A stretch of 53,778 nt of DNA, the filler included, from Stramenopiles sp. TOSAG23-2 (Eukaryota): NCBI GenBank assembly GCA_900128395.1. It is 3 parts of 3 records of this genome, joined end to end, with 100 filler letters (N's around TTAATTAATTAA, not from the genome) between each part and the next. Parts side by side here need not be neighbours in the genome. Positions count along the whole stretch, not along the records: positions 35,944 to 53,778 come from LT649622.1; 2 more parts are not named here. One strand, given 5' to 3'. Shown piece after piece: positions 269 through 46,187 of the stretch. Positions within the stretch are counted from its first letter, which is position 1; each line of letters begins with the position of its first letter. The notes under the pieces were generated by a model, which was not told the origin of the DNA, searched no databases, and saw only the letters and a program-made list of their open reading frames with translations. Position numbers and translations under genes: made by a program.

Positions 269-1603
269 ATGCCTGGAAAACGAAAACGCAAACTCGACGC
301 GCAAGGGATTGCAGAGACACGAGCTGCAGCTCTCGATGCTATGGCTGGACGAGACTTTGCCGCTGCGATTCGCTCTCTCGACCGGCTAATTTCTTCTGGA
401 GACGCGGCACACGAGTGTCGTCTTCTCCGCTCGTCGTGTCAGCTCGCACTGAGCAAGAGCATTTCAAGTGCCCGGCTGCCCAAGGCCCTCAAAGATGTGG
501 AGGCAGTGTGCAAGAGTGCACCTATGATGCCCGAAGCGCGTCTTTGTATGGCCCGTGTCCTTTTGGCCCAGGGAAACCCTTTTAATGCCGAGATTGCTTG
601 TGTGCATGGTATCCGGCAAGCGGCAGCCAAGGCGGCAGCGCAGGCTATGGCAAAAGGTGGTGGGAAAGACGAAATACGGCCTGATGCTGGAGCAGAGGGT
701 AGCAAAAGCGGCACCGAGGGACCCACGGGGGGCGACAGTGGCTTGTTATGGGTGGGCAGCACCGTGGTCGTCGTCGGCACTTCTCGAAAGGATCTCAATG
801 GCCAGGAGGCCTCTGTCACTGCCCATCAGGAGAGCTCTGGGCGGTACTGTGTACAGCTTCGGGGCGGGGGGGAAGAAGAAGTGGCACTCAAGCCCGAGAA
901 CCTCTCGCTTCCGTACGCCGCGGCCTTCCTGACGGCGGAGGAGGTGCGAAAGAGACTGGAAGAAATTCTCTCAAAGGCGAGGGCGGAAGCGGACCCCCGT
1001 CGGGAGAAAGCCTTGGCACTGAAAACGAAGGCAAACGCATCCTTCTCCTCCAGTTCTGCCATGGCTAACTACGATGAACGCAAAGTGCCTTCGCTGATCG
1101 AAGCCGCCAGCGGCTACACGGAGGCAATCGAACTCTGCCCGCAGGACGCTGTTTTGTTTTCTAATCGTGCAGCATGCTACATGAAGCTCGGTAAATGCGA
1201 CCAATCGGGAGGAGGAAAGGCTGCGAGTGGCAAGTGGTTCAAAAAAGCGGTGCAAGATGCCAAAAGATGCGTAAAGCTGCGCCCGACGTGGCCCAAAGCT
1301 TACCATCGTTTGGGAACGGCCCACCTATTGGTCGCAAAAAGCGAATGTGCTTCCTATCTCGAGGCAAGTGCAGGGCAGTGTTTTCTCGATGGCTTTCGCA
1401 GATGTTACCCCTTGAAAAATTGGACTCCTATTGGCACATCTACTGAGGGACAAGCCACGGAGACGCACACACGTGGGGACGCCATGTCCAAAGCACTCAC
1501 TGCAGGATGGCAAAGTATTAATCCACTCTATCGGCCCACTACCACAACGGAGGAGAAAAGAAAGCAAGGACTAAATCTAAAAAACGATCGTACCTACAGA
1601 TAG
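269..1603 (+). CDS. TPR-repeat protein (STI1/HOP-like C-terminal TPRs) with a central KOW/SH3-like module
   Basis: 444-aa ORF. TPR consensus in ALALKTKANASF...YTEAIELCPQDAVLFSNRAACYMKLG and AVQDAKRCVKLRPTWPKAYHRLG. Module VVVVGTSRKDLNGQEASV...SGRYCVQL...LKPENL. N-terminal NLS-like KRKRK. Much higher GC than its neighbours. Confidence 0.8.
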   Translation: MPGKRKRKLDAQGIAETRAAALDAMAGRDFAAAIRSLDRLISSGDAAHECRLLRSSCQLALSKSISSARLPKALKDVEAVCKSAPMMPEARLCMARVLLAQGNPFNAEIACVHGIRQAAAKAAAQAMAKGGGKDEIRPDAGAEGSKSGTEGPTGGDSGLLWVGSTVVVVGTSRKDLNGQEASVTAHQESSGRYCVQLRGGGEEEVALKPENLSLPYAAAFLTAEEVRKRLEEILSKARAEADPRREKALALKTKANASFSSSSAMANYDERKVPSLIEAASGYTEAIELCPQDAVLFSNRAACYMKLGKCDQSGGGKAASGKWFKKAVQDAKRCVKLRPTWPKAYHRLGTAHLLVAKSECASYLEASAGQCFLDGFRRCYPLKNWTPIGTSTEGQATETHTRGDAMSKALTAGWQSINPLYRPTTTTEEKRKQGLNLKNDRTYR

Positions 1604-17872: not shown

Positions 17873-17972
17873 NNNNNNNNNNNNNNNNNNNNNNNNNNNN
17901 NNNNNNNNNNNNNNNNTTAATTAATTAANNNNNNNNNNNNNNNNNNNNNNNNNNNNNNNNNNNNNNNNNNNN
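17873..17972. other. Artificial contig linker (44 N + TTAATTAATTAA + 44 N)
   Basis: Six-frame stop linker at 17917-17928; total length exactly 100 nt. Confidence 0.98.
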
Positions 17973-20458: not shown

Positions 20459-21757
20459 ATGTTTCGCCTTTCCAAACGTGTGACTGCAGCCGCTTTTAAT
20501 ACAGCGGCTATTCGCCGATTTAATTCCAGTACCGCAGGGAAGCCCATTGAATGTCTCGCAGCCGTAGCATGGCAGCCTGATCCAGAATTTTACGAAAATG
20601 GTACGAAACCTTCTGAAACTGCACTTTCATTGGAGAAAGTCATTGTACAACCACCAAAAGAAAATGAGGTAAGAATTCGCATTGATTATGCGACCTTATG
20701 TGGAACGGATTTGCAGGCAATGGCGGGGAAAGATGGAGAGGCTTACTTTCCTTCTATTTTAGGACATGAGTCGGCGGGTACAGTGGAGTCAGTTGGTCCC
20801 GGAGTCACAACGGTGAAACCTGGTGACAAAGTTATCCCAACGTACCAGGCCCAATGCTTTGACGAAGACTTGGCAAGTGATACTTGTCCTCGATGCAGAG
20901 GTTATCGCGAGCGGAAAACCAACCTATGTGGTAAGATCAGATCTTTCACCGGTGCGGGTGTGATGCGTAATGGTGGTGTCCGTTTCCAAGCAGCGAATGA
21001 TGGCCAAGATTTAAAGCACTTCATGGGGATCAGCTGCTTCTCTCAGTACACGGTGGTGCACGAGGAAAGCGCTGGTGCGATCCGCGAGGATGCACCTTTG
21101 GATAAGGTACCATTACTTGCCTGTGCCCTCCCGACGGGATATGGTGCCGTCTTTAACACAGCAAAAGTGGAAGCTGGGTCCAGGATTGCTGTTTTCGGGC
21201 TTGGGACAGTGGGACTCTCTATTATTGAGGCATGTCAACGCATTGGTGTTGAGAAAATTATTGCAATTGATGTCAACCCTGAAAAATTCCATCGTGCTGC
21301 GGCCTTTGGCGCCACTGAATTCGTGAATCCCGCCGACCATGAGGCACCAATTCAAGACGTCATTGTCGATATGACAAACGGAGGTGTAGATTATTCATTT
21401 GAATGTACCGGTTCAGTTGACGTCATGCGGGCAGCGCTAGAGTGCGCTCATATTGGATGGGGAAAAAGTGTTGTCATTGGTGTTGCAGCTGGTGGAAAAG
21501 AAATCTCGACACGTCCTTTCCAGTTGATAACGGGGCGTACTTGGACTGGCACTGCGTTTGGTGGTTACCGTTCTCGCGAAGGTGTTGCACAGCTTGTTGA
21601 TGATTATATGGATGGTAAATTTGATATTGAACCATATATCACTCATAACGTTCCATTGCAAGACATCCATGAAGCCTTTCGCTTACTTAGTGCAGGAGAG
21701 AGTCTTCGCACAATCATATGGATGCATGATGATCCTCCACACGTTGGTGCCGTCTAG
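20459..21757 (+). CDS. ADH5: Class III alcohol dehydrogenase / S-(hydroxymethyl)glutathione dehydrogenase (GSNOR-like) with a mitochondrial-type presequence
   Basis: [67 protein letters not shown] and [22 protein letters not shown]-terminus [25 protein letters not shown]. Confidence 0.93.
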
Positions 21758-35843: not shown

Positions 35844-35943
35844 NNNNNNNNNNNNNNNNNNNNNNNNNNNNNNNNNNNNNNNNNNNNTTAATTAATTAAN
35901 NNNNNNNNNNNNNNNNNNNNNNNNNNNNNNNNNNNNNNNNNNN
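35844..35943. other. Artificial contig linker (44 N + TTAATTAATTAA + 44 N)
   Basis: Linker at 35888-35899; total length exactly 100 nt. Confidence 0.98.
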
Positions 35944-40425: not shown

Positions 40426-40688
40426 GATAATAAAAAAATATGAAATATTATATCATCTCTTTTGATAATTTATTTTTTAATTTACTCCCCTAACCAGCTA
40501 ACCCTACTCGTAATAATTATTATACTTCGTATAAAATATATATTTTTGCGACCATCATTAGTACGAAGTACATGTATAATCGCGGTCAATAATACTCTTG
40601 TACTTCCCTCGTTTTATAGTTCCACTCTCTCCTCTCGATCTCATCTCTAACTCCTTCTTGCAGCTGTTTTGTGGACGTTGTTTGTTGC

Positions 40689-42722
40689 TTATTCATAAAT
40701 AGGACAAAATGTATTCATTCCTAATGTAAAATCACCAGGGTCATTGAATCGTCTCCCTCTTTCCAAGGAATTAAGTTGATCCATATCCTCTTTCGTTAAA
40801 CTAAAATCCAAAATATCAATATTTTCTTTCATACGATGTACTTTAGTTGATTTAGGAATGATAGACATCTTACGTTCAATACCCCAACGTAATAGCACTT
40901 GTGCAGGCGTTTTACCTTTTGCACTTGCAATCGTTTTTACAACCTCTTCAAGCATACAAGAATCAGTCTTTTTTGCCATATCTAATTCAACATATGAACT
41001 TGAACCAAGCGGCGAAAAACCGGTAACGACAATACCTTCTTCTTCACAGAAACGTACCAATAATTGCTGCTGATTGTATGGATGCAATTCAACTTGTAAA
41101 ACTGCAGGTGGTATTGTACAAAAGGAAAGAATATCACGCAATCCAGCTGTATTAAAGTTACAAACACCAATATTTCTAACTAAACCTTTATTTACTAGAT
41201 TTTCCATAGCTCCCCATGTTTTGTAGACTGGGACAGGAGAAAATTCCATCCTTGGCTGTAATGCTGTAGGATCATGGACCCATTCCGGTGGATATCGTGT
41301 TTCAAATGGTACGAAACGCAAGGAGATTGGAAAGTGTATCAAATATAAATCTAAATATTCAAGACCTAGATCTTCTAAGCTACGACGACATGCTGCTTCT
41401 ACATGTTCAGGCGCATGGTATGTATTCCATAATTTAGATGTAACCCATAGCTCATCACGAGTAACGATACCATCTGCAATAGCCTTAGCAATACCTGCAC
41501 CAACTTCTTTCTCATTGCCATAATCACATGCTTCATCTAAATGCCTGTAACCAATTTTAATAGCATTGTATACAGTATCAGCACATGCATCTTTTGGAAC
41601 TTTCCAGAATCCCATTCCCACAGCAGGCATACGATCGCCAGAGCGTAAGGTACACATTGGCATATTTGTAATAGTACCAGGTACGGTTTTATGATTTTTG
41701 ATTTCAGCTCTTGGGCCGCCTAATGCTGCTAAAATACGACGTGGGCGTTCAAATGTATTTCTGCTATGCATGCAAACACCATTATCGATTACAATAACAT
41801 CGCCTTTTTCCCATTTGAAGCATACACGTGTTTTCATCATAAATGCTTCAATATCTTTCAGCACACTACCTTCTTTTGCAGTTAACATCTCCCCGTTGCC
41901 AAATTGAACAGCTTTTGTTGGATCATTTCGTGAATCTATCCAACCAGTATATGCAGCAACCATTGCATTGATAAACATGGATGTCCCTGTGCGAGGATCT
42001 GTTTTCAATGCTGGCACCATAACAGTAGTAGTTTTTAACTCATCATTTGCTAACCATTCCCATGTGGTACCAATTTTTCTCATTGCATCTTCCGCTTGAT
42101 CCTTCGTTTCGCATAAAAATGTACTTCTCCAGGAACGTCCAATTGCAGAGGTATTATCATCTTCAAATGGCATAACACGGTTATATTGAACACCATGTTT
42201 CAATACTTTTTCAGTAAAATTAGGATGTTTCAACTTCATATACTCAGCCACTTCGTTGCTGAGAATGATAGGAGTTTCACCACCGACTGCTGAAGGGGTT
42301 TCGCAGTAAAACATGACGTATTTAGGAGGGGTGGGACATTGTGCCATTTCATGGTGAAATGGTATTGGTTCAGATGGAGGTGATTCATTTGTCGTAAAAA
42401 CAACATCACGTACAACGTTTGTTCTTGGTGCAGCTCCACCAACATATGGAAATTTCTGTAAATTCAATGAGTCAGCAACGTTAGCAAATTCTTCTGGTGT
42501 TGTCTCTGTCCATCCACGTAGAAGAACAGCGCCATAAGTGAGCGCTTGTTGCAACAATGCATCACGATTACTTTTCACATAATCAATTAAATGTGAAGTT
42601 GGTAAATTTTTCTCGACTGGTGATAATGCCAAAGGAAATGGCCTTCCTGATTTTGCGGAAAGTTTTTGACCTTGAATTGCTACACGTTCAACAGCTGAAG
42701 CCATTTTAACAACAGATGCCAT
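40689..42722 (-). CDS. Fusion of a TauD/clavaminate-synthase-like Fe(II)/2OG dioxygenase and an aldo-keto reductase (xylose-reductase-like)
   Basis: N-half: GAVLLRG, YVGGAAPR, TTNESPP..IPFHHEMA, GGETPI, WEKGDVIVIDN..MHSR. C-half: GYRHLDEACDYGNE, TSKLWNT, YLIHFP, QVELHPY, IIPKS. Confidence 0.92.
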   Translation of the reverse strand: MASVVKMASAVERVAIQGQKLSAKSGRPFPLALSPVEKNLPTSHLIDYVKSNRDALLQQALTYGAVLLRGWTETTPEEFANVADSLNLQKFPYVGGAAPRTNVVRDVVFTTNESPPSEPIPFHHEMAQCPTPPKYVMFYCETPSAVGGETPIILSNEVAEYMKLKHPNFTEKVLKHGVQYNRVMPFEDDNTSAIGRSWRSTFLCETKDQAEDAMRKIGTTWEWLANDELKTTTVMVPALKTDPRTGTSMFINAMVAAYTGWIDSRNDPTKAVQFGNGEMLTAKEGSVLKDIEAFMMKTRVCFKWEKGDVIVIDNGVCMHSRNTFERPRRILAALGGPRAEIKNHKTVPGTITNMPMCTLRSGDRMPAVGMGFWKVPKDACADTVYNAIKIGYRHLDEACDYGNEKEVGAGIAKAIADGIVTRDELWVTSKLWNTYHAPEHVEAACRRSLEDLGLEYLDLYLIHFPISLRFVPFETRYPPEWVHDPTALQPRMEFSPVPVYKTWGAMENLVNKGLVRNIGVCNFNTAGLRDILSFCTIPPAVLQVELHPYNQQQLLVRFCEEEGIVVTGFSPLGSSSYVELDMAKKTDSCMLEEVVKTIASAKGKTPAQVLLRWGIERKMSIIPKSTKVHRMKENIDILDFSLTKEDMDQLNSLERGRRFNDPGDFTLGMNTFCPIYE

Positions 42723-43132
42723 ATTTTTATTTGTATATGTTTTAATATTGTAAATTTGATTGGTAATTTTTCTTCTATGTACTTATTATATCTATGTATA
42801 TATACAGTATAATGTACATACACTATCTGTAATTTAACCTATTCTTGTATAATATATATTCCGGATATGTTACATATATATATTTGTACATACTGATGTA
42901 GTATAAGCCTGTGCTGGTGATGTGGTATAAGCTAATGTTAATGTGTGGTGATCAAGTGACGATGTTGAAATATCGGTGATGATGGATGATTTTGTTGGTG
43001 TTGTGTACAGTAATATATAGTATTAGCTCTAGTCTACAATATACCTGTGGTATGCTATGGTATGCTGTGTTATAGTGTGTGTGACTTAAAGATCTATGAA
43101 ATATACTGTATACATTCCCTTAAAAGGTGTAG

Positions 43133-43395
43133 AATATCTTTATTACGTATTATCTGCTAGTACTGTATTAGAATTGATATAGTATACGGTGTATATAAAT
43201 AATATTATATATATTCATATATAAAATGTTCTCNNNNNNNNNNNNNNNNNNNNNNNNNNNNNNNNNNNNNNNNNNNNNNNNNNNNNNNNNNNNNAATATC
43301 TTTATTACGTATTATCTGCTAGTACTGTATTAGAATTGATATAGTATACGGTGTATATAAATAATATTATAAATATTCATATATAAAATGTTCTC
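43133..43395. repeat. 101-nt direct repeat flanking a 61-N scaffold gap (unmerged overlap)
   Basis: 43133-43233 equals 43295-43395 except T43210 versus A43372. Confidence 0.9.
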
Positions 43396-44840: not shown

Positions 44841-46187
44841 ATGCAATATCAAAATATGTTCATATCAATTTCAAACTTGTATATGTTATTCATAATAATA
44901 ATAATCATTTGCATGGCAAATAATATATTTATCACTGCACATACTATAAAGGGTCATACGAAACAATGCGTAGATGAGTTTTATCCTATATTAATACCAA
45001 CTGCTGGAACAAAAGAATCAAAAATAGCAGAGGAAAGTCAAGTATGTAAAGTTATTCACTTTATTCGTCACGCAGAAGGATTTCACAATGTAGCAGATAG
45101 GAAACATGGGACAGATATATTAAAATTTGAAAACTCTGGTAATAATTTTACCGATGCAAAATTAACAGAAAATGGTATACGTCAATCACAAGCTTTAAAA
45201 AAACGAATCCAAAATCCGAAGGGATCATATGCAAAATGGACTATTGTGAATAAAGTGACGGAAAATTTCAAAGAGAGATATTTAGATATCGATGCTATTG
45301 TCACGTCAACACTGTCCCGTGCGATAGAAACGGCATTTTATGGTTTGCCAGTGAGTAAAAAGACTATCCATATAGCAACTGAATTGGGCCGTGAACGCGT
45401 AGCTGAATATATGTGTGAAAAAAGAAGAAATTTATCTGAAATTGAGAATGATTATCCATTTGTTCAAATTAAACATGCAACATCAGAAGAAGATGATCGA
45501 TTTGATGAGAAAGAAACTGAAGATGATTTATTAAAAGCACGAATTCGAGCTCGAAAATTTTTGAAATGGTTATTATTTGAAATGGCTGGAACAAAATTTG
45601 CTTATGTTTCTCATTTTGAATTTCTTCAATTAATTTTTGATGATTTCTTCAAAAAAGTAGATAATCGTCGTGCAGCATTTCGTGATAAAGCTAGAGGTGA
45701 GGATCAAATTTTTCCTTGGATTTTTGAATTTCGTAATGCACAGATTCAGCCAGCTTATTTGTGCCCTTCAAATCTAATTGAAGATCAAATATTGTGTTTG
45801 AATGATGAAGCACAAGTGAAATATGAAATTGATCAAATTCAGAAGAATGGTCCAATTTTTAGTAAAAAATCCCCACAACAATATAAAGGAAAGGCAGGTT
45901 CGCATGCTCCACTGGCATTTCAATCCATAAAAACACGAGAGATAACCGTCAAAGTTGAGCATGGAATGTCAGATGAACATTTTATTGAATATGTATACTT
46001 GCGTGATGTAAAAACGAAAGAAATAGTGGCATTTAAAAAATTTTCAAAGGAAATGGCAAATGATAAAAATTTGCATCAACCTATTTTAAAATTTATGCCT
46101 GAAAAAGAAACAGAAGGAAGAGTCAGGCCGTATGCATATTGCAACAAACATGGATTGTGGAAAGGGCCTGCGATTTCATATCTGTAA
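44841..46187 (+). CDS. Secreted histidine phosphatase (PGM/PMU1-like) fused to a superoxide reductase (desulfoferrodoxin Fe-binding) domain
   Basis: Hydrophobic N-terminal signal. HFIRHAEGFHN, DAKLTENGIRQ, TSTLSRAIET, RER...CEKRR and VSH. C-terminal SHAP...HGMSDEHFIEYVY...YAYCNKHGLW. Confidence 0.87.
   Translation: MQYQNMFISISNLYMLFIIIIIICMANNIFITAHTIKGHTKQCVDEFYPILIPTAGTKESKIAEESQVCKVIHFIRHAEGFHNVADRKHGTDILKFENSGNNFTDAKLTENGIRQSQALKKRIQNPKGSYAKWTIVNKVTENFKERYLDIDAIVTSTLSRAIETAFYGLPVSKKTIHIATELGRERVAEYMCEKRRNLSEIENDYPFVQIKHATSEEDDRFDEKETEDDLLKARIRARKFLKWLLFEMAGTKFAYVSHFEFLQLIFDDFFKKVDNRRAAFRDKARGEDQIFPWIFEFRNAQIQPAYLCPSNLIEDQILCLNDEAQVKYEIDQIQKNGPIFSKKSPQQYKGKAGSHAPLAFQSIKTREITVKVEHGMSDEHFIEYVYLRDVKTKEIVAFKKFSKEMANDKNLHQPILKFMPEKETEGRVRPYAYCNKHGLWKGPAISYL

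What the first reader, a model, noticed from the sequence alone, without database searches (positions are those of the whole stretch)
40689..42722. Two-enzyme fusion: Fe/2OG dioxygenase plus NADPH aldo-keto reductase
Seen: a complete clavaminate-synthase-like domain (HxE...H triad, HHE and MHSR) is joined by a ~16-aa linker (about 41665-41712) to a complete AKR with the D/Y/K/H tetrad and IPKS. There is no stop or intron signal at the junction. Known: the plant At3g21360-like CAS family has no firmly assigned substrate, and the HFP...YPP-type AKRs are aldose/xylose reductases. Inference: a Rosetta-stone link suggesting an oxidative cleavage (desulfation, desulfonation or demethylation) that releases an aldehyde or aldose, which the second domain reduces. 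This could be an undescribed catabolic route for modified sugars or osmolytes.
Basis: partly seen in the sequence, partly recalled or inferred. Interest (0 to 1): 0.7.

Follow-up and report, generated by a model that had tools for sequence, protein, structure and literature searches.

The report
Fused sulfoquinovose dioxygenase-reductase in a protist
A marine protist gene joins the two enzymes that bacteria use to strip the sulfur off the plant sulfosugar sulfoquinovose and turn it into glucose, which gives a directly testable candidate for the long-missing eukaryotic route for breaking this very abundant compound down.

Summary
ORF 40689-42722 (-) encodes 677 aa: a TauD-family Fe/2-oxoglutarate dioxygenase, a 14-aa linker and a complete aldo-keto reductase. 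RNA-library contigs from 3 of the 4 studies laid cross the linker with no joint. 119 of the 120 listed homologues have both domains, from many marine protist groups.

The N-domain is of the sulfoquinovose (SQ) dioxygenase SqoD type (PDB 9YUT, E 7e-76). Every SQ, metal and 2-oxoglutarate ligand residue of that crystal structure is kept. Of its 80 bacterial relatives, 63 lie beside an AKR and 65 beside a sulfoquinovosidase candidate.

The C-domain is 58% identical, shared C-terminal tail included, to the AKR directly upstream of SqoD in Alteromonas-type SQ clusters, where the published 'SquF' rises 56-fold on SQ.

Best reading (about 0.75): a one-polypeptide sulfo-SDO pathway, SQ to sulfite plus 6-dehydroglucose, then NADPH reduction to glucose.

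The chemistry is known in bacteria. A dinoflagellate SqoD+SqgA gene appears in a 2025 supplement. I found no description of the SqoD-AKR fusion, and reviews say that eukaryotic SQ-degrading enzymes are unknown. No enzyme activity was tested here. The scan had not noted this before.

The parts
40689..42722 (-). Whole ORF, 677 aa plus stop: fused SqoD-like dioxygenase and AKR
   Evidence: ORF and translation; Pfam TauD plus Aldo_ket_red; 119 of 120 listed homologues have both domains
41709..42677 (-). N-terminal Fe(II)/2-oxoglutarate dioxygenase domain, SqoD / At3g21360 type (residues about 16-338)
   Evidence: at E<=1e-5 the only PDB hits are 1y0z (1.4e-78) and 9yut = MaSqoD (7e-76), aligned over residues 16-334. 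Foldseek 1y0z TM 0.94 (normalised to the target)
42348..42356 (-). H123-H124-E125: first His and Glu of the 2-His-1-carboxylate metal triad (MaSqoD His115, Glu117)
   Evidence: H and E kept in 106/106 fused, 116/116 standalone and 80/80 bacterial rows
41766..41768 (-). H319: third metal ligand (MaSqoD His308). R321 follows at 41760-41762
42339..42341 (-). Q128: sulfonate-binding Gln (MaSqoD Gln120)
   Evidence: paper; alignment; Q in 106/106, 116/116, 80/80
41940..41942 (-). W261: sugar-binding Trp (MaSqoD Trp253, which H-bonds SQ C1-OH and C2-OH)
   Evidence: W in 106/106, 116/116, 80/80
42423..42446 (-). Y93-V-G-G-A97-A98-P-R100: active-site lid loop (MaSqoD loop 84-93 with Tyr85, Ala89, Ala90, Arg92)
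   Evidence: (paper)
41667..41708 (-). Inter-domain linker, residues about 339-352
   Evidence: pLDDT 55 for residues 341-350. (PDB alignments end at 334 and begin at 353). (RNA-library contigs bridge it). (spacing varies among homologues)
40725..41666 (-). C-terminal NADPH aldo-keto reductase domain (residues 353-666), xylose-reductase-like, of the subfamily found in bacterial SQ clusters
   Evidence: 5zci 1.1e-96, 1jez 5.2e-90. (58% identity over 316 aa to the AKR of the Alteromonas-type cluster on L120). (TM 0.94-0.97, normalised to the target)
41334..41537 (-). AKR catalytic tetrad codons: D396 (41535-41537), Y401 (41520-41522), K430 (41433-41435), H463 (41334-41336)
   Evidence: codons. 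D396, Y401 and K430 invariant, H463 kept in at least 90% of 78 fused proteins
40692..40724 (-). Conserved C-terminal tail (...FCPIYE), shared with the bacterial SQ-cluster AKR and not seen in the fungal xylose reductases aligned
   Evidence: P674 invariant, I675 and Y676 at least 90%; the L120 AKR ends ...HPIYD; the alignments to fungal XR stop before the tail
40523..42744 (-). Extent covered by RNA-library contigs: about 5-22 nt upstream of the ATG and about 100-165 nt past the stop
   Evidence: table 8. No cover at 42768-42900 in any of the 4 runs. Contigs cannot prove transcript ends

Best explanation
The gene encodes a bifunctional, probably cytosolic enzyme that runs the two steps of the sulfolytic sulfoquinovose dioxygenase (sulfo-SDO/ASDO) pathway on one polypeptide. 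Step 1, N-domain: with Fe(II), 2-oxoglutarate and O2, it hydroxylates C6 of sulfoquinovose (6-deoxy-6-sulfoglucose). The alpha-hydroxysulfonate collapses to sulfite plus 6-dehydroglucose, with succinate and CO2 as co-products. Step 2, C-domain: the NADPH-dependent aldo-keto reductase reduces the C6 aldehyde to give glucose. Shown here: the fusion is real, is present in RNA libraries and is conserved; the N-domain has the SqoD fold, the metal triad and all SQ-contact residues; the C-domain is an intact AKR of the same subfamily as the AKR that sits beside SqoD in marine bacterial SQ clusters. Inferred: the substrate, the coupling of the two steps, and the cell's use of it, which would be recycling of its own sulfolipid or digestion of sulfolipid from algal prey, yielding glucose and sulfite.
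For: (1) N-domain. At E<=1e-5 the only PDB sequence hits are At3g21360 (1y0z, 1.4e-78) and 9yut (7e-76). 9YUT-9YUX are the M. aestuarii SqoD structures. The ligand residues named in that paper map as follows: His115/Glu117/His308 to H123/E125/H319, Gln120 to Q128, Trp253 to W261, Arg92 to R100, Tyr85 to Y93, Ala89/Ala90 to A97/A98, Ala185 to A193. Q128 and W261 are kept in 106/106 fused, 116/116 standalone and 80/80 bacterial sequences.
(2) Bacterial context of the N-domain's relatives (38-52% identity; 80 loci, including M. ushuaiensis DSM 15871, the strain grown on SQ in PMC10507154). A SquF/SmoB-type AKR is in the stretch in 63/80, a SqgA-like GFO gene in 50/80, a GH31 gene in 15/80, and TRAP DctM in 49/80. 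The L041 AKR matches SmoB structures 7bby/7bc1 at 3.4e-100. The L041 GFO gene matches SqgA structures 8zn9 at 1.8e-137 and 8qc2 at 3.9e-121. The three GH31 genes tested pass the NF007746 equivalog cut-off.
(3) C-domain. 80 metagenome loci were fetched with patterns from this AKR subfamily. In 26 the AKR lies directly upstream of a separate TauD gene, and 16 of those 26 also hold a SqgA-like or GH31 gene. 23 are TauD-AKR fusions. L120 reads TonB receptor, SSF symporter, GH31, TauE, GntR, AKR, TauD (335 aa with H121/E123/H313), a Cons_hypoth698 protein and a Mo-oxidoreductase. This matches the published A. macleodii SQ cluster in layout, SqoD length, residue numbers and the 9-nt AKR/SqoD gap. 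In that cluster MASE_18010 'SquF' is 56.6-fold up on SQ and AmSqoD releases sulfite from SQ. The L120 AKR is 58% identical to the window's AKR domain over 316 aa, through the ...PIY(D/E) end.
(4) Independent links to sulfoquinovosidase. P0365 is a SqoD-SqgA fusion (9yut 1.1e-91; 8qc3 1.5e-85) whose dioxygenase part is 47% identical to the window's. On contig L115 a SqgA-like gene (8zn9 3.7e-50) lies head-to-head with a fused SqoD-AKR gene.
(5) Reality of the fusion. AlphaFold gives pLDDT 93.3 and pTM 0.92.
Against: No enzyme activity was measured here, and none is published for any SqoD-AKR fusion in the papers I searched.
In the FastTree of 302 dioxygenase domains, all 80 bacterial loci plus 95 standalone sequences lie on one side of a branch (SH-like 91) with no fused protein among them. 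The eukaryotic domains are therefore a sister group of the biochemically characterised enzymes, not nested within them. The tree has no outgroup.
One pocket residue differs: MaSqoD Val249 is Ala in all 106 fused proteins, though also in 20 of the 80 bacterial ones. Met118 is Leu in 60 of 106, but that is a backbone contact.
The AKR is not a SmoB/SquF orthologue: 21% identity to the M. ushuaiensis SquF.
The AKR subfamily is not exclusive to SQ contexts. 31 of the 80 metagenome loci show the AKR alone, and 13 of those are contigs over 6.8 kb.
That L120 represents the published Alteromonas cluster is inferred from layout and numbering, not from a named sequence. The reductase activity of that 'SquF' is not described in the passages I read.
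No genome is held for this organism. I could not check whether it has a sulfoquinovosidase, makes SQDG or can dispose of sulfite.
Confidence: 0.75

Rival explanations
1. Same chemistry, different substrate. The dioxygenase desulfonates or desulfates another compound, such as sulfoquinovosyl glycerol itself, sulfofucose, DHPS, isethionate or a sugar sulfate, and the AKR reduces the aldehyde released (for example glyceraldehyde to glycerol).
For: The eukaryotic domains form a group apart from all 80 bacterial SqoD loci in the tree. Val249 of MaSqoD is Ala in every fused protein. The AKR resembles broad-range aldose/xylose reductases. From my own knowledge, DHPS and isethionate are abundant in marine algae. 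The closest plant structure, At3g21360, has no assayed substrate in the 13 papers listed for that name.
Against: All residues that contact the sugar ring and the sulfonate in the SQ-bound crystal structure are invariant across fused, standalone and bacterial members. Relatives are fused to, or adjacent to, sulfoquinovosidases (SqgA, GH31), which deliver free SQ. MaSqoD gave no sulfite with taurine (PMC10507154 passage).
Confidence: 0.15
2. Two unrelated activities on one chain. The AKR acts as a general aldose/xylose or stress-aldehyde reductase and the dioxygenase has a separate role, with no metabolic coupling.
For: The AKR subfamily also occurs alone on 13 long contigs and as standalone proteins about 60% identical in protists and marine bacteria.
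Against: The same pairing recurs in three forms: fusion in many protist lineages (119 of 120 listed hits), AKR-TauD operons (26 loci) and SqoD beside SmoB-type AKRs (63 of 80 loci). The pathway is known to need exactly this pair (PMC10507154).
Confidence: 0.06
3. Artefact: a mis-assembly or a read-through gene model that joins two neighbouring genes.
For: None found. In one of the four runs laid, X12, the contigs break at 41663/41724.
Against: One ORF with no stop or frame change. RNA-library contigs of three studies span the junction. Two other contigs hold the identical ORF. 119 of the 120 listed homologues are fused, many from cultured-strain transcriptomes marked as complete ORFs.
Confidence: 0.01

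Closest known systems
Sulfo-SDO (sulfo-ASDO) pathway of Marinobacterium aestuarii / Marinomonas ushuaiensis: SqoD plus SquF (PMC10507154; structures 9YUT-9YUX, PMC12951627)
   Same: The dioxygenase is of the same type: E 7e-76 to 9yut, with the metal triad, Gln120, Trp253, the lid loop and Arg92 all kept. It has the same need for an NADPH aldo-keto reductase partner.
   Different: There the two enzymes are separate genes in an operon with GntR, a TRAP transporter and SqgA. Their SquF is a SmoB-type AKR, only 21% identical to the window's AKR domain. Here the two are fused, in a eukaryote, and the dioxygenase domain sits outside the bacterial clade.
Alteromonas macleodii ATCC 27126 sulfo-SDO cluster (AmSqoD MASE_18005, 'SquF' MASE_18010, SqgH; PMC12780224)
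   Same: The AKR of a cluster with this exact layout (L120) is 58% identical to the window's AKR domain and shares its C-terminal tail. It lies directly beside the dioxygenase.
   Different: The AmSqoD-type dioxygenase is only 32% identical to the window's and lacks the PYVGGAAPR lid loop. The gene order is AKR then SqoD, as separate genes. That L120 equals the published cluster is inferred from layout, length and residue numbering.
Dinoflagellate genes with SqoD and SqgA parts (Symbiodinium pilosum SPIL2461_LOCUS1475, Polarella glacialis; PMC12780224 Methods and the data sheet for Suppl. Fig. 11)
   Same: A eukaryotic SqoD-like domain fused to another enzyme of SQ catabolism. P0365 from my search has this architecture, and its dioxygenase part is 47% identical to the window's.
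   Different: The partner there is the sulfoquinovosidase (the step before), not the reductase (the step after). In the passages and sheets I saw, it is listed only for the SqgA assays. 'aldo' and 'reductase' gave no hits where searched: 'reductase' in the main text, both words in the 5 readable supplements.
Arabidopsis At3g21360 clavaminate-synthase-like protein (PDB 1Y0Z/2Q4A)
   Same: It is the best PDB sequence hit of the N-domain (1.4e-78) and keeps HHEMAQ, GGAAPR and YTGW in the alignment. The MaSqoD authors note it as the closest structural homologue of MaSqoD.
   Different: It is standalone, and no substrate is assayed in the papers I found.
Fungal xylose reductases, AKR2B (Candida tenuis 1JEZ/1K8C, D. 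nepalensis 5ZCI)
   Same: They are the best solved relatives of the C-domain (1.1e-96; Foldseek TM 0.94-0.97 normalised to the target), with the same catalytic tetrad and IPKS motif.
   Different: They are standalone enzymes of pentose use. The C-terminal region differs: RFNDPWDW in fungi, against RFNDPG.F...PIYE in the fused and SQ-cluster AKRs.
Sulfo-SMO (sulfo-ASMO) pathway: flavin monooxygenase SmoC/SquD plus AKR SmoB/SquF
   Same: It has the same overall logic (oxygenolytic C-S cleavage to 6-dehydroglucose, then AKR reduction to glucose) and the same products (PMC9594981 and PMC10507154 passages).
   Different: The cleavage enzyme is an unrelated luciferase-like monooxygenase (PF00296), and the AKR is of the SmoB type.

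Membership tests
SqoD (Fe(II)/2-oxoglutarate sulfoquinovose dioxygenase) | TauD/TfdA fold, closer to SqoD than to taurine dioxygenase | tested here: met
   Pfam PF02668. At E<=1e-5 the only PDB hits are 1y0z and 9yut, and no TauD or AtsK entries appear. Foldseek 1y0z TM 0.94, normalised to the target.
SqoD (Fe(II)/2-oxoglutarate sulfoquinovose dioxygenase) | 2-His-1-carboxylate triad (MaSqoD His115, Glu117, His308) and the 2-oxoglutarate Arg | tested here: met
   H123, E125, H319; R100 (= Arg92) and R321.
SqoD (Fe(II)/2-oxoglutarate sulfoquinovose dioxygenase) | Neutral SQ-recognition network: Gln120, Trp253, lid loop 84-93 (Ala89/Ala90 amides), Met118 amide, Ala185 carbonyl | tested here: met
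   Q128, W261, Y93-R100, M126 and A193 are present. Q and W are invariant in 302 of 302 aligned rows. Val249 is Ala here.
SqoD (Fe(II)/2-oxoglutarate sulfoquinovose dioxygenase) | Placement inside the clade of biochemically characterised enzymes | tested here: not met
   The FastTree puts all 80 bacterial loci apart from every fused protein (SH-like 91). There is no outgroup, so this shows a sister-group relation only.
SqoD (Fe(II)/2-oxoglutarate sulfoquinovose dioxygenase) | Association with a 6-dehydroglucose reductase and a sulfoquinovosidase | tested here: met
   The reductase is fused. For sulfoquinovosidase, relatives are fused to SqgA (P0365) or lie head-to-head with it (L115). This could not be tested for this organism because no genome is held.
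SqoD (Fe(II)/2-oxoglutarate sulfoquinovose dioxygenase) | Sulfite and 6-dehydroglucose released from SQ | not testable with these tools
   This needs a bench assay.
SquF/SmoB (6-dehydroglucose reductase, SmoB-type AKR, PDB 7BC1) | Orthology to A. tumefaciens SmoB / M. aestuarii SquF | tested here: not met
   21% identity over 211 aa to the M. ushuaiensis SquF, which itself hits 7bby/7bc1 at 3.4e-100.
AKR beside AmSqoD in Alteromonas-type SQ clusters (labelled 'SquF' in PMC12780224) | Same AKR subfamily, full-length similarity including the C-terminal tail | tested here: met
   58% identity over 316 aa to L120:9986-10951, to the last residues. 26 loci have this AKR directly upstream of a TauD gene. 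The named Alteromonas protein itself could not be compared.
Aldo-keto reductase superfamily (PF00248) | (alpha/beta)8 barrel with the catalytic tetrad Asp-Tyr-Lys-His and the NADPH-binding IPKS motif | tested here: met
   Pfam 1.8e-46. D396/Y401/K430 invariant and H463 kept in at least 90% of 78 fused proteins. IPKS at 622. Model pLDDT above 90 over most of the domain.
AKR2 xylose reductases | Standalone pentose-pathway enzyme with xylose as physiological substrate | tested here: inconclusive
   Sequence and fold are close: 5zci 1.1e-96, about 46% identity in Foldseek. But the protein is fused, has a different C-terminal region, and groups with SQ-cluster AKRs at higher identity, 58%.

The most novel reading that the evidence does not exclude
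This fusion is the missing eukaryotic sulfoquinovose-mineralising enzyme. A single cytosolic protein, spread across diatoms, dinoflagellates, pelagophytes, dictyochophytes, chlorarachniophytes, cryptophytes, thraustochytrids, a kinetoplastid and uncultured flagellates, would convert the sulfolipid head group directly to glucose plus sulfite. If so, algae recycle their own sulfolipid, grazers digest that of their prey, and a sizeable part of the global SQ flux bypasses the bacterial sulfonate network. The same reading would make the standalone plant protein At3g21360 the plant SQ dioxygenase.
Probability: 0.5. Interest if true: 0.85.

Novelty: new variant of a known kind. Interest (0 to 1): 0.7.

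Why it matters
Sulfoquinovose is made at about 10 billion tonnes a year (PMC12890257 and PMC10755693 abstracts). [quoted passage not shown] Chlamydomonas degrades its sulfolipid under sulfur starvation to feed protein synthesis (PMC5638391, start of the abstract as shown in a search listing). A conserved, expressed protein that carries both steps of the sulfolytic route gives that question a concrete gene to express, assay and knock out. Published gene surveys counted prokaryotic sqoD and smoC and, for eukaryotes, only sqgA (PMC12780224 passages). The fusion also identifies a second, xylose-reductase-like family of 6-dehydroglucose reductases, in bacteria as well.

Tried and rejected
- Complex prediction with the two domains as separate chains gave no verdict (score 0.00). 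It says nothing for or against an interface.
- A search of the organism's own genome for sulfoquinovosidase or SQDG-synthesis genes was not possible, because no genome is held.
- My first idea was that the fused AKR is a non-orthologous replacement with no bacterial counterpart in SQ clusters. It rested on tblastn against the first 80 loci, which gave only 22-27% identity hits. I dropped it after the metagenome loci showed this AKR subfamily next to TauD genes.
- Run X12's contigs stop on both sides of the linker. This is not evidence of two transcripts.
- Foldseek's 50 listed rows did not include 9YUT, because AKR entries fill the list. The sequence search covers that point.
- The tree has no outgroup, so I make no claim on the direction of transfer between bacteria and eukaryotes.
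- The window's neighbours are ordinary eukaryotic genes (a Tom37/metaxin-like gene and an N-terminal glutamine amidase) and tell nothing about function.
I could not measure the distance between the two active sites, so substrate channelling stays a guess despite pTM 0.92.
- A word search of this scan's earlier notes for this fusion found nothing.
- Literature searches found no paper on a SqoD-AKR fusion. Subscription-only papers are outside the library, and supplement file 3 of PMC12780224 could not be read.
Full report
**Observation.** The window is AT-rich, gene-dense DNA with typical eukaryotic genes: HECT and UCH ubiquitin enzymes, Tub, RRP40, SLC12, a Tom37/metaxin-like protein and an N-terminal glutamine amidase. 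Earlier notes of this scan call the organism an uncultured marine protist or flagellate (I did not check this). ORF 40689-42722 on the minus strand is uninterrupted and gives 677 aa. Pfam finds TauD at residues 40-331 and Aldo_ket_red at 373-653. The linker is residues about 339-352 (41667-41708). It is the one internal stretch of low confidence (pLDDT 55) in an AlphaFold model that is otherwise very confident, with mean pLDDT 93.3 and pTM 0.92.

**Is the fusion real?** Rows from 8 studies hold the stretch, 12 of them on record as RNA libraries. I laid 4 runs from 4 of those studies. Contigs of three runs cross the linker (X1 41019-41981, X6 40869-42009, X8 40835-42221), and no joints were reported. 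In the fourth run, X12, contigs break at 41663/41724, which proves nothing. None of the four runs has cover at 42768-42900, upstream of the start. Contigs in an RNA library are not proof of transcription, but two of the three bridging libraries are oligo-dT or poly-A selected. Two metagenome contigs carry the identical ORF (L081, L082), possibly from the window's own source. GC3 of the gene is 0.24, within the neighbours' range. Of the 120 best homologues of near length, 119 carry both Pfam domains; the exception is P0110. The source names that are given cover:
- diatoms (Seminavis, Epithemia, Mayamaea, Craspedostauros)
- a dinoflagellate (Durusdinium)
- a thraustochytrid (Schizochytrium)
- a chlorarachniophyte (Amorphochlora)
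- a dictyochophyte (Octactis)
- pelagophytes (Aureoumbra, Chrysophaeum)
- a kinetoplastid (Neobodo)

Many of these are transcripts marked as complete ORFs.

**The N-domain.** Against all PDB sequences, the only hits at E<=1e-5 are At3g21360 (1y0z, 1.4e-78) and 9yut (7e-76). [quoted passage not shown] I read parts 2 and 3 of the 4 parts of that paper. [quoted passage not shown] The metal is held by His115, Glu117 and His308, and Arg92 binds 2-oxoglutarate. In the HMMER alignment these map to Q128, W261, A97, M126, A193, Y93-R100, H123/E125/H319 and R100. I aligned 302 dioxygenase domains: 106 fused, 116 standalone and 80 from bacterial loci. Gln, Trp, the triad and Arg92 are invariant in all three groups. 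Val249 of MaSqoD is Ala in every fused protein and in 20 of the 80 bacterial ones. Met118 is Leu in 60 of the 106 fused proteins.

**Bacterial relatives of the N-domain.** A scan of one genome per prokaryotic species returned 80 loci at 38-52% identity. They include Marinomonas ushuaiensis DSM 15871, the strain shown to grow on SQ (PMC10507154), and several Marinobacterium species. I searched the ORFs of these loci with profiles built from Pfam-annotated neighbours:

| Neighbour in the fetched stretch | Loci of 80 |
|---|---|
| SmoB/SquF-type AKR | 63 |
| GFO/IDH/MocA gene | 50 |
| GH31 gene | 15 |
| TRAP DctM | 49 |
| MFS_2 transporter | 8 |
| None of these (one of the five is a 4-kb contig) | 5 |

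The M. ushuaiensis AKR hits the SmoB structures at 3.4e-100. Its GFO gene hits the NAD-dependent sulfoquinovosidase SqgA structures 8zn9, 8qc2 and 8qc3 at 1e-121 or better. Three GH31 genes pass NCBIfam's PRK10426 equivalog cut-off; that this model is E. coli YihQ is my recollection. This dioxygenase family is therefore embedded in SQ catabolic clusters almost wherever its context can be seen.

**The C-domain.** Its best solved relatives are fungal xylose reductases (5zci 1.1e-96; Foldseek TM 0.94-0.97 normalised to the target). It is only 21% identical to the SmoB-type SquF, so at first it looked like an unrelated recruit. A metagenome scan with patterns from this AKR changed that reading:

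| Arrangement in the locus | Loci of 80 |
|---|---|
| TauD-AKR fusion | 23 |
| This AKR (52-61% identical) directly upstream of a separate TauD gene | 26 |
| AKR alone | 31 |

Of the 26 operon-type loci, 11 also hold a SqgA-like gene and 5 a GH31 gene. Of the 31 AKR-only loci, 13 are contigs over 6.8 kb. L123 and L125 may be one sequence filed twice.

Locus L120 reads TonB receptor, SSF symporter, GH31, TauE sulfite exporter, GntR, AKR, TauD, a Cons_hypoth698 membrane protein and a molybdopterin oxidoreductase. Its TauD gene is 335 aa with His121, Glu123 and His313. The AKR and TauD genes are 9 nt apart.

This is the layout that PMC12780224 describes for the SQ-induced cluster of Alteromonas macleodii ATCC 27126. 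AmSqoD (MASE_18005, residues H121/E123/H313) releases sulfite and 6-dehydroglucose from SQ. The adjacent MASE_18010, labelled 'SquF, oxidoreductase', is 56.6-fold more abundant on SQ. The cluster also holds GntR, SqgH, a TonB receptor, a sulfate transporter and a two-component sulfite dehydrogenase (passages and supplementary tables).

The L120 AKR is 58% identical to the window's AKR domain over 316 residues, to the very end (...HPIYD against ...CPIYE). That tail is conserved among the fused proteins and is not seen in the fungal enzymes aligned. The L120 dioxygenase is only 32% identical to the window's and lacks the GGAAPR lid loop. The protist protein thus combines a MaSqoD-type dioxygenase with an Alteromonas-cluster-type reductase.

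**Further links to SQ.** A profile search of 1.84 billion representative proteins gave 1559 hits at E<=1e-30. I ran Pfam on 20 of the longer ones:
- 4 are full TauD+AKR fusions and 3 are truncated ones.
- 2 are tandem TauD-TauD proteins.
- One, P0365, is TauD plus GFO/IDH/MocA.

P0365 hits MaSqoD at 1.1e-91 and the SqgA structures at 1.5e-85 to 7.8e-75. Its dioxygenase part is 47% identical to the window's. Its nearest relatives sit in the clade that holds fused eukaryotic proteins.

On the 30-kb contig L115, a fused SqoD-AKR gene is split by a frame change, which suggests an intron. It lies head-to-head with a gene whose only PDB hits are SqgA structures (8zn9 3.7e-50).

**Mechanism.** The most likely reading (about 0.75) has two steps. 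The N-domain hydroxylates C6 of SQ using Fe(II), 2-oxoglutarate and O2; sulfite leaves, and 6-dehydroglucose passes to the AKR domain, which reduces it with NADPH to glucose. Shown here are the architecture, its presence in RNA libraries, conservation of all ligand residues, and the recurring genomic association of both domain families with each other and with sulfoquinovosidases. Inferred are the substrate, the coupling, the cytosolic location and the physiological role. The cytosolic location rests on the alignment to MaSqoD starting at residue 16 and on about 100 of the 120 fused homologues having fewer than 40 residues before the conserved core; no targeting predictor was run.

**Points against, and limits.**
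- Nothing was assayed.
- The eukaryotic dioxygenase domains are a sister group of the characterised bacterial clade, not nested in it, and the tree is unrooted.
- One pocket residue differs.
- The AKR subfamily also occurs without a TauD neighbour.
- The identity of L120 with the published Alteromonas cluster is inferred.
- No genome of this organism is held, so its sulfoquinovosidase, sulfolipid synthesis and sulfite disposal are unknown.
- The main rival (about 0.15) is the same chemistry on a related sulfonate.

**What is known.** The two-step chemistry was published for bacteria in 2023 (PMC10507154), and the dioxygenase structure in 2026 (PMC12951627). The latter paper mentions At3g21360 only as the closest structural homologue. 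PMC12780224 lists in its Methods a Symbiodinium pilosum gene as 'SpsqgA+SpsqoD', and the data sheet for its Suppl. Fig. 11 compares SqoD and SqgA parts of S. pilosum and Polarella glacialis genes with the M. aestuarii proteins. A eukaryotic SqoD-like domain has therefore been seen in print. In that paper 'reductase' does not occur in the main text, and neither 'aldo' nor 'reductase' occurs in the five supplements that could be searched; file 3 could not be read. Seven library searches found no description of a SqoD-AKR fusion. Reviews state that eukaryotic SQ-degrading enzymes are unknown.

**Verdict.** This is a new variant of a known kind: a fused, eukaryotic form with a mosaic origin, worth a bench test. 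Interest 0.7.

Noticed in passing
P0365 (protein); locus L115:8167-11928: There is a second kind of fusion in the same family. P0365 (751 aa) joins a SqoD-like domain to a SqgA-like NAD-dependent sulfoquinovosidase. On contig L115 a SqgA-like gene lies head-to-head with a fused SqoD-AKR gene. Dinoflagellate examples of the SqoD+SqgA form are listed in a supplement of PMC12780224.
   Followed up: partly
L103, L120, L155 (also L121, L122, L131, L140, L142, L147, L148, L152, L154, L157, L160): Many marine bacterial clusters pair a TauD-family dioxygenase (AmSqoD-like, 31-39% identical to the window's) with a xylose-reductase-like AKR instead of the SmoB-type SquF. 6-Dehydroglucose reductases therefore seem to come from two AKR subfamilies. 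The papers I read label both 'SquF'.
   Followed up: partly
PDB 1y0z alignment: Arabidopsis At3g21360 keeps HHEMAQ, GGAAPR, YTGW and the metal triad of MaSqoD, so it may be a plant sulfoquinovose dioxygenase. None of the 13 papers listed for that name assigns it a substrate.
   Followed up: no
L047, L057, L063, L065 (Vibrio loci): These loci have a SqoD homologue with a SqgA-like gene and a TRAP transporter, but no SmoB-type AKR and no xylose-reductase-like AKR within the 8-kb flanks. The reductase must lie elsewhere or be of another kind.
   Followed up: no
P0397, P0465: These are tandem TauD-TauD proteins (680 and 673 aa) within the SqoD-like family.
   Followed up: no
window 44841-46187 (+): A 448-aa ORF combines a histidine phosphatase domain (His_Phos_1, residues 143-270) with a C-terminal desulfoferrodoxin / superoxide-reductase-like domain (367-441). 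This is an unusual pairing for a eukaryote.
   Followed up: no
window 269-1603 (+) and 20459-21757 (+): Two ORFs stand out in composition. The TPR protein at 269-1603 has GC 0.56 and GC3 0.55, and the zinc alcohol dehydrogenase at 20459-21757 has GC 0.48 and GC3 0.39. The other ORFs have GC3 of 0.16-0.31. Possible foreign origin or assembly seam at the window's start.
   Followed up: no
window 17873-17972, 35844-35943, 43234-43294: There are five runs of N, 237 bases in all. The last lies in the intergenic space about 510 bases upstream of the fusion gene's start.
   Followed up: no
L001:6758-7843 (+): In the bacterial locus closest to the window's dioxygenase (52% identity), a 361-aa ORF with no Pfam match sits between the YihQ-like GH31 gene and the SqoD gene.
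   Followed up: no
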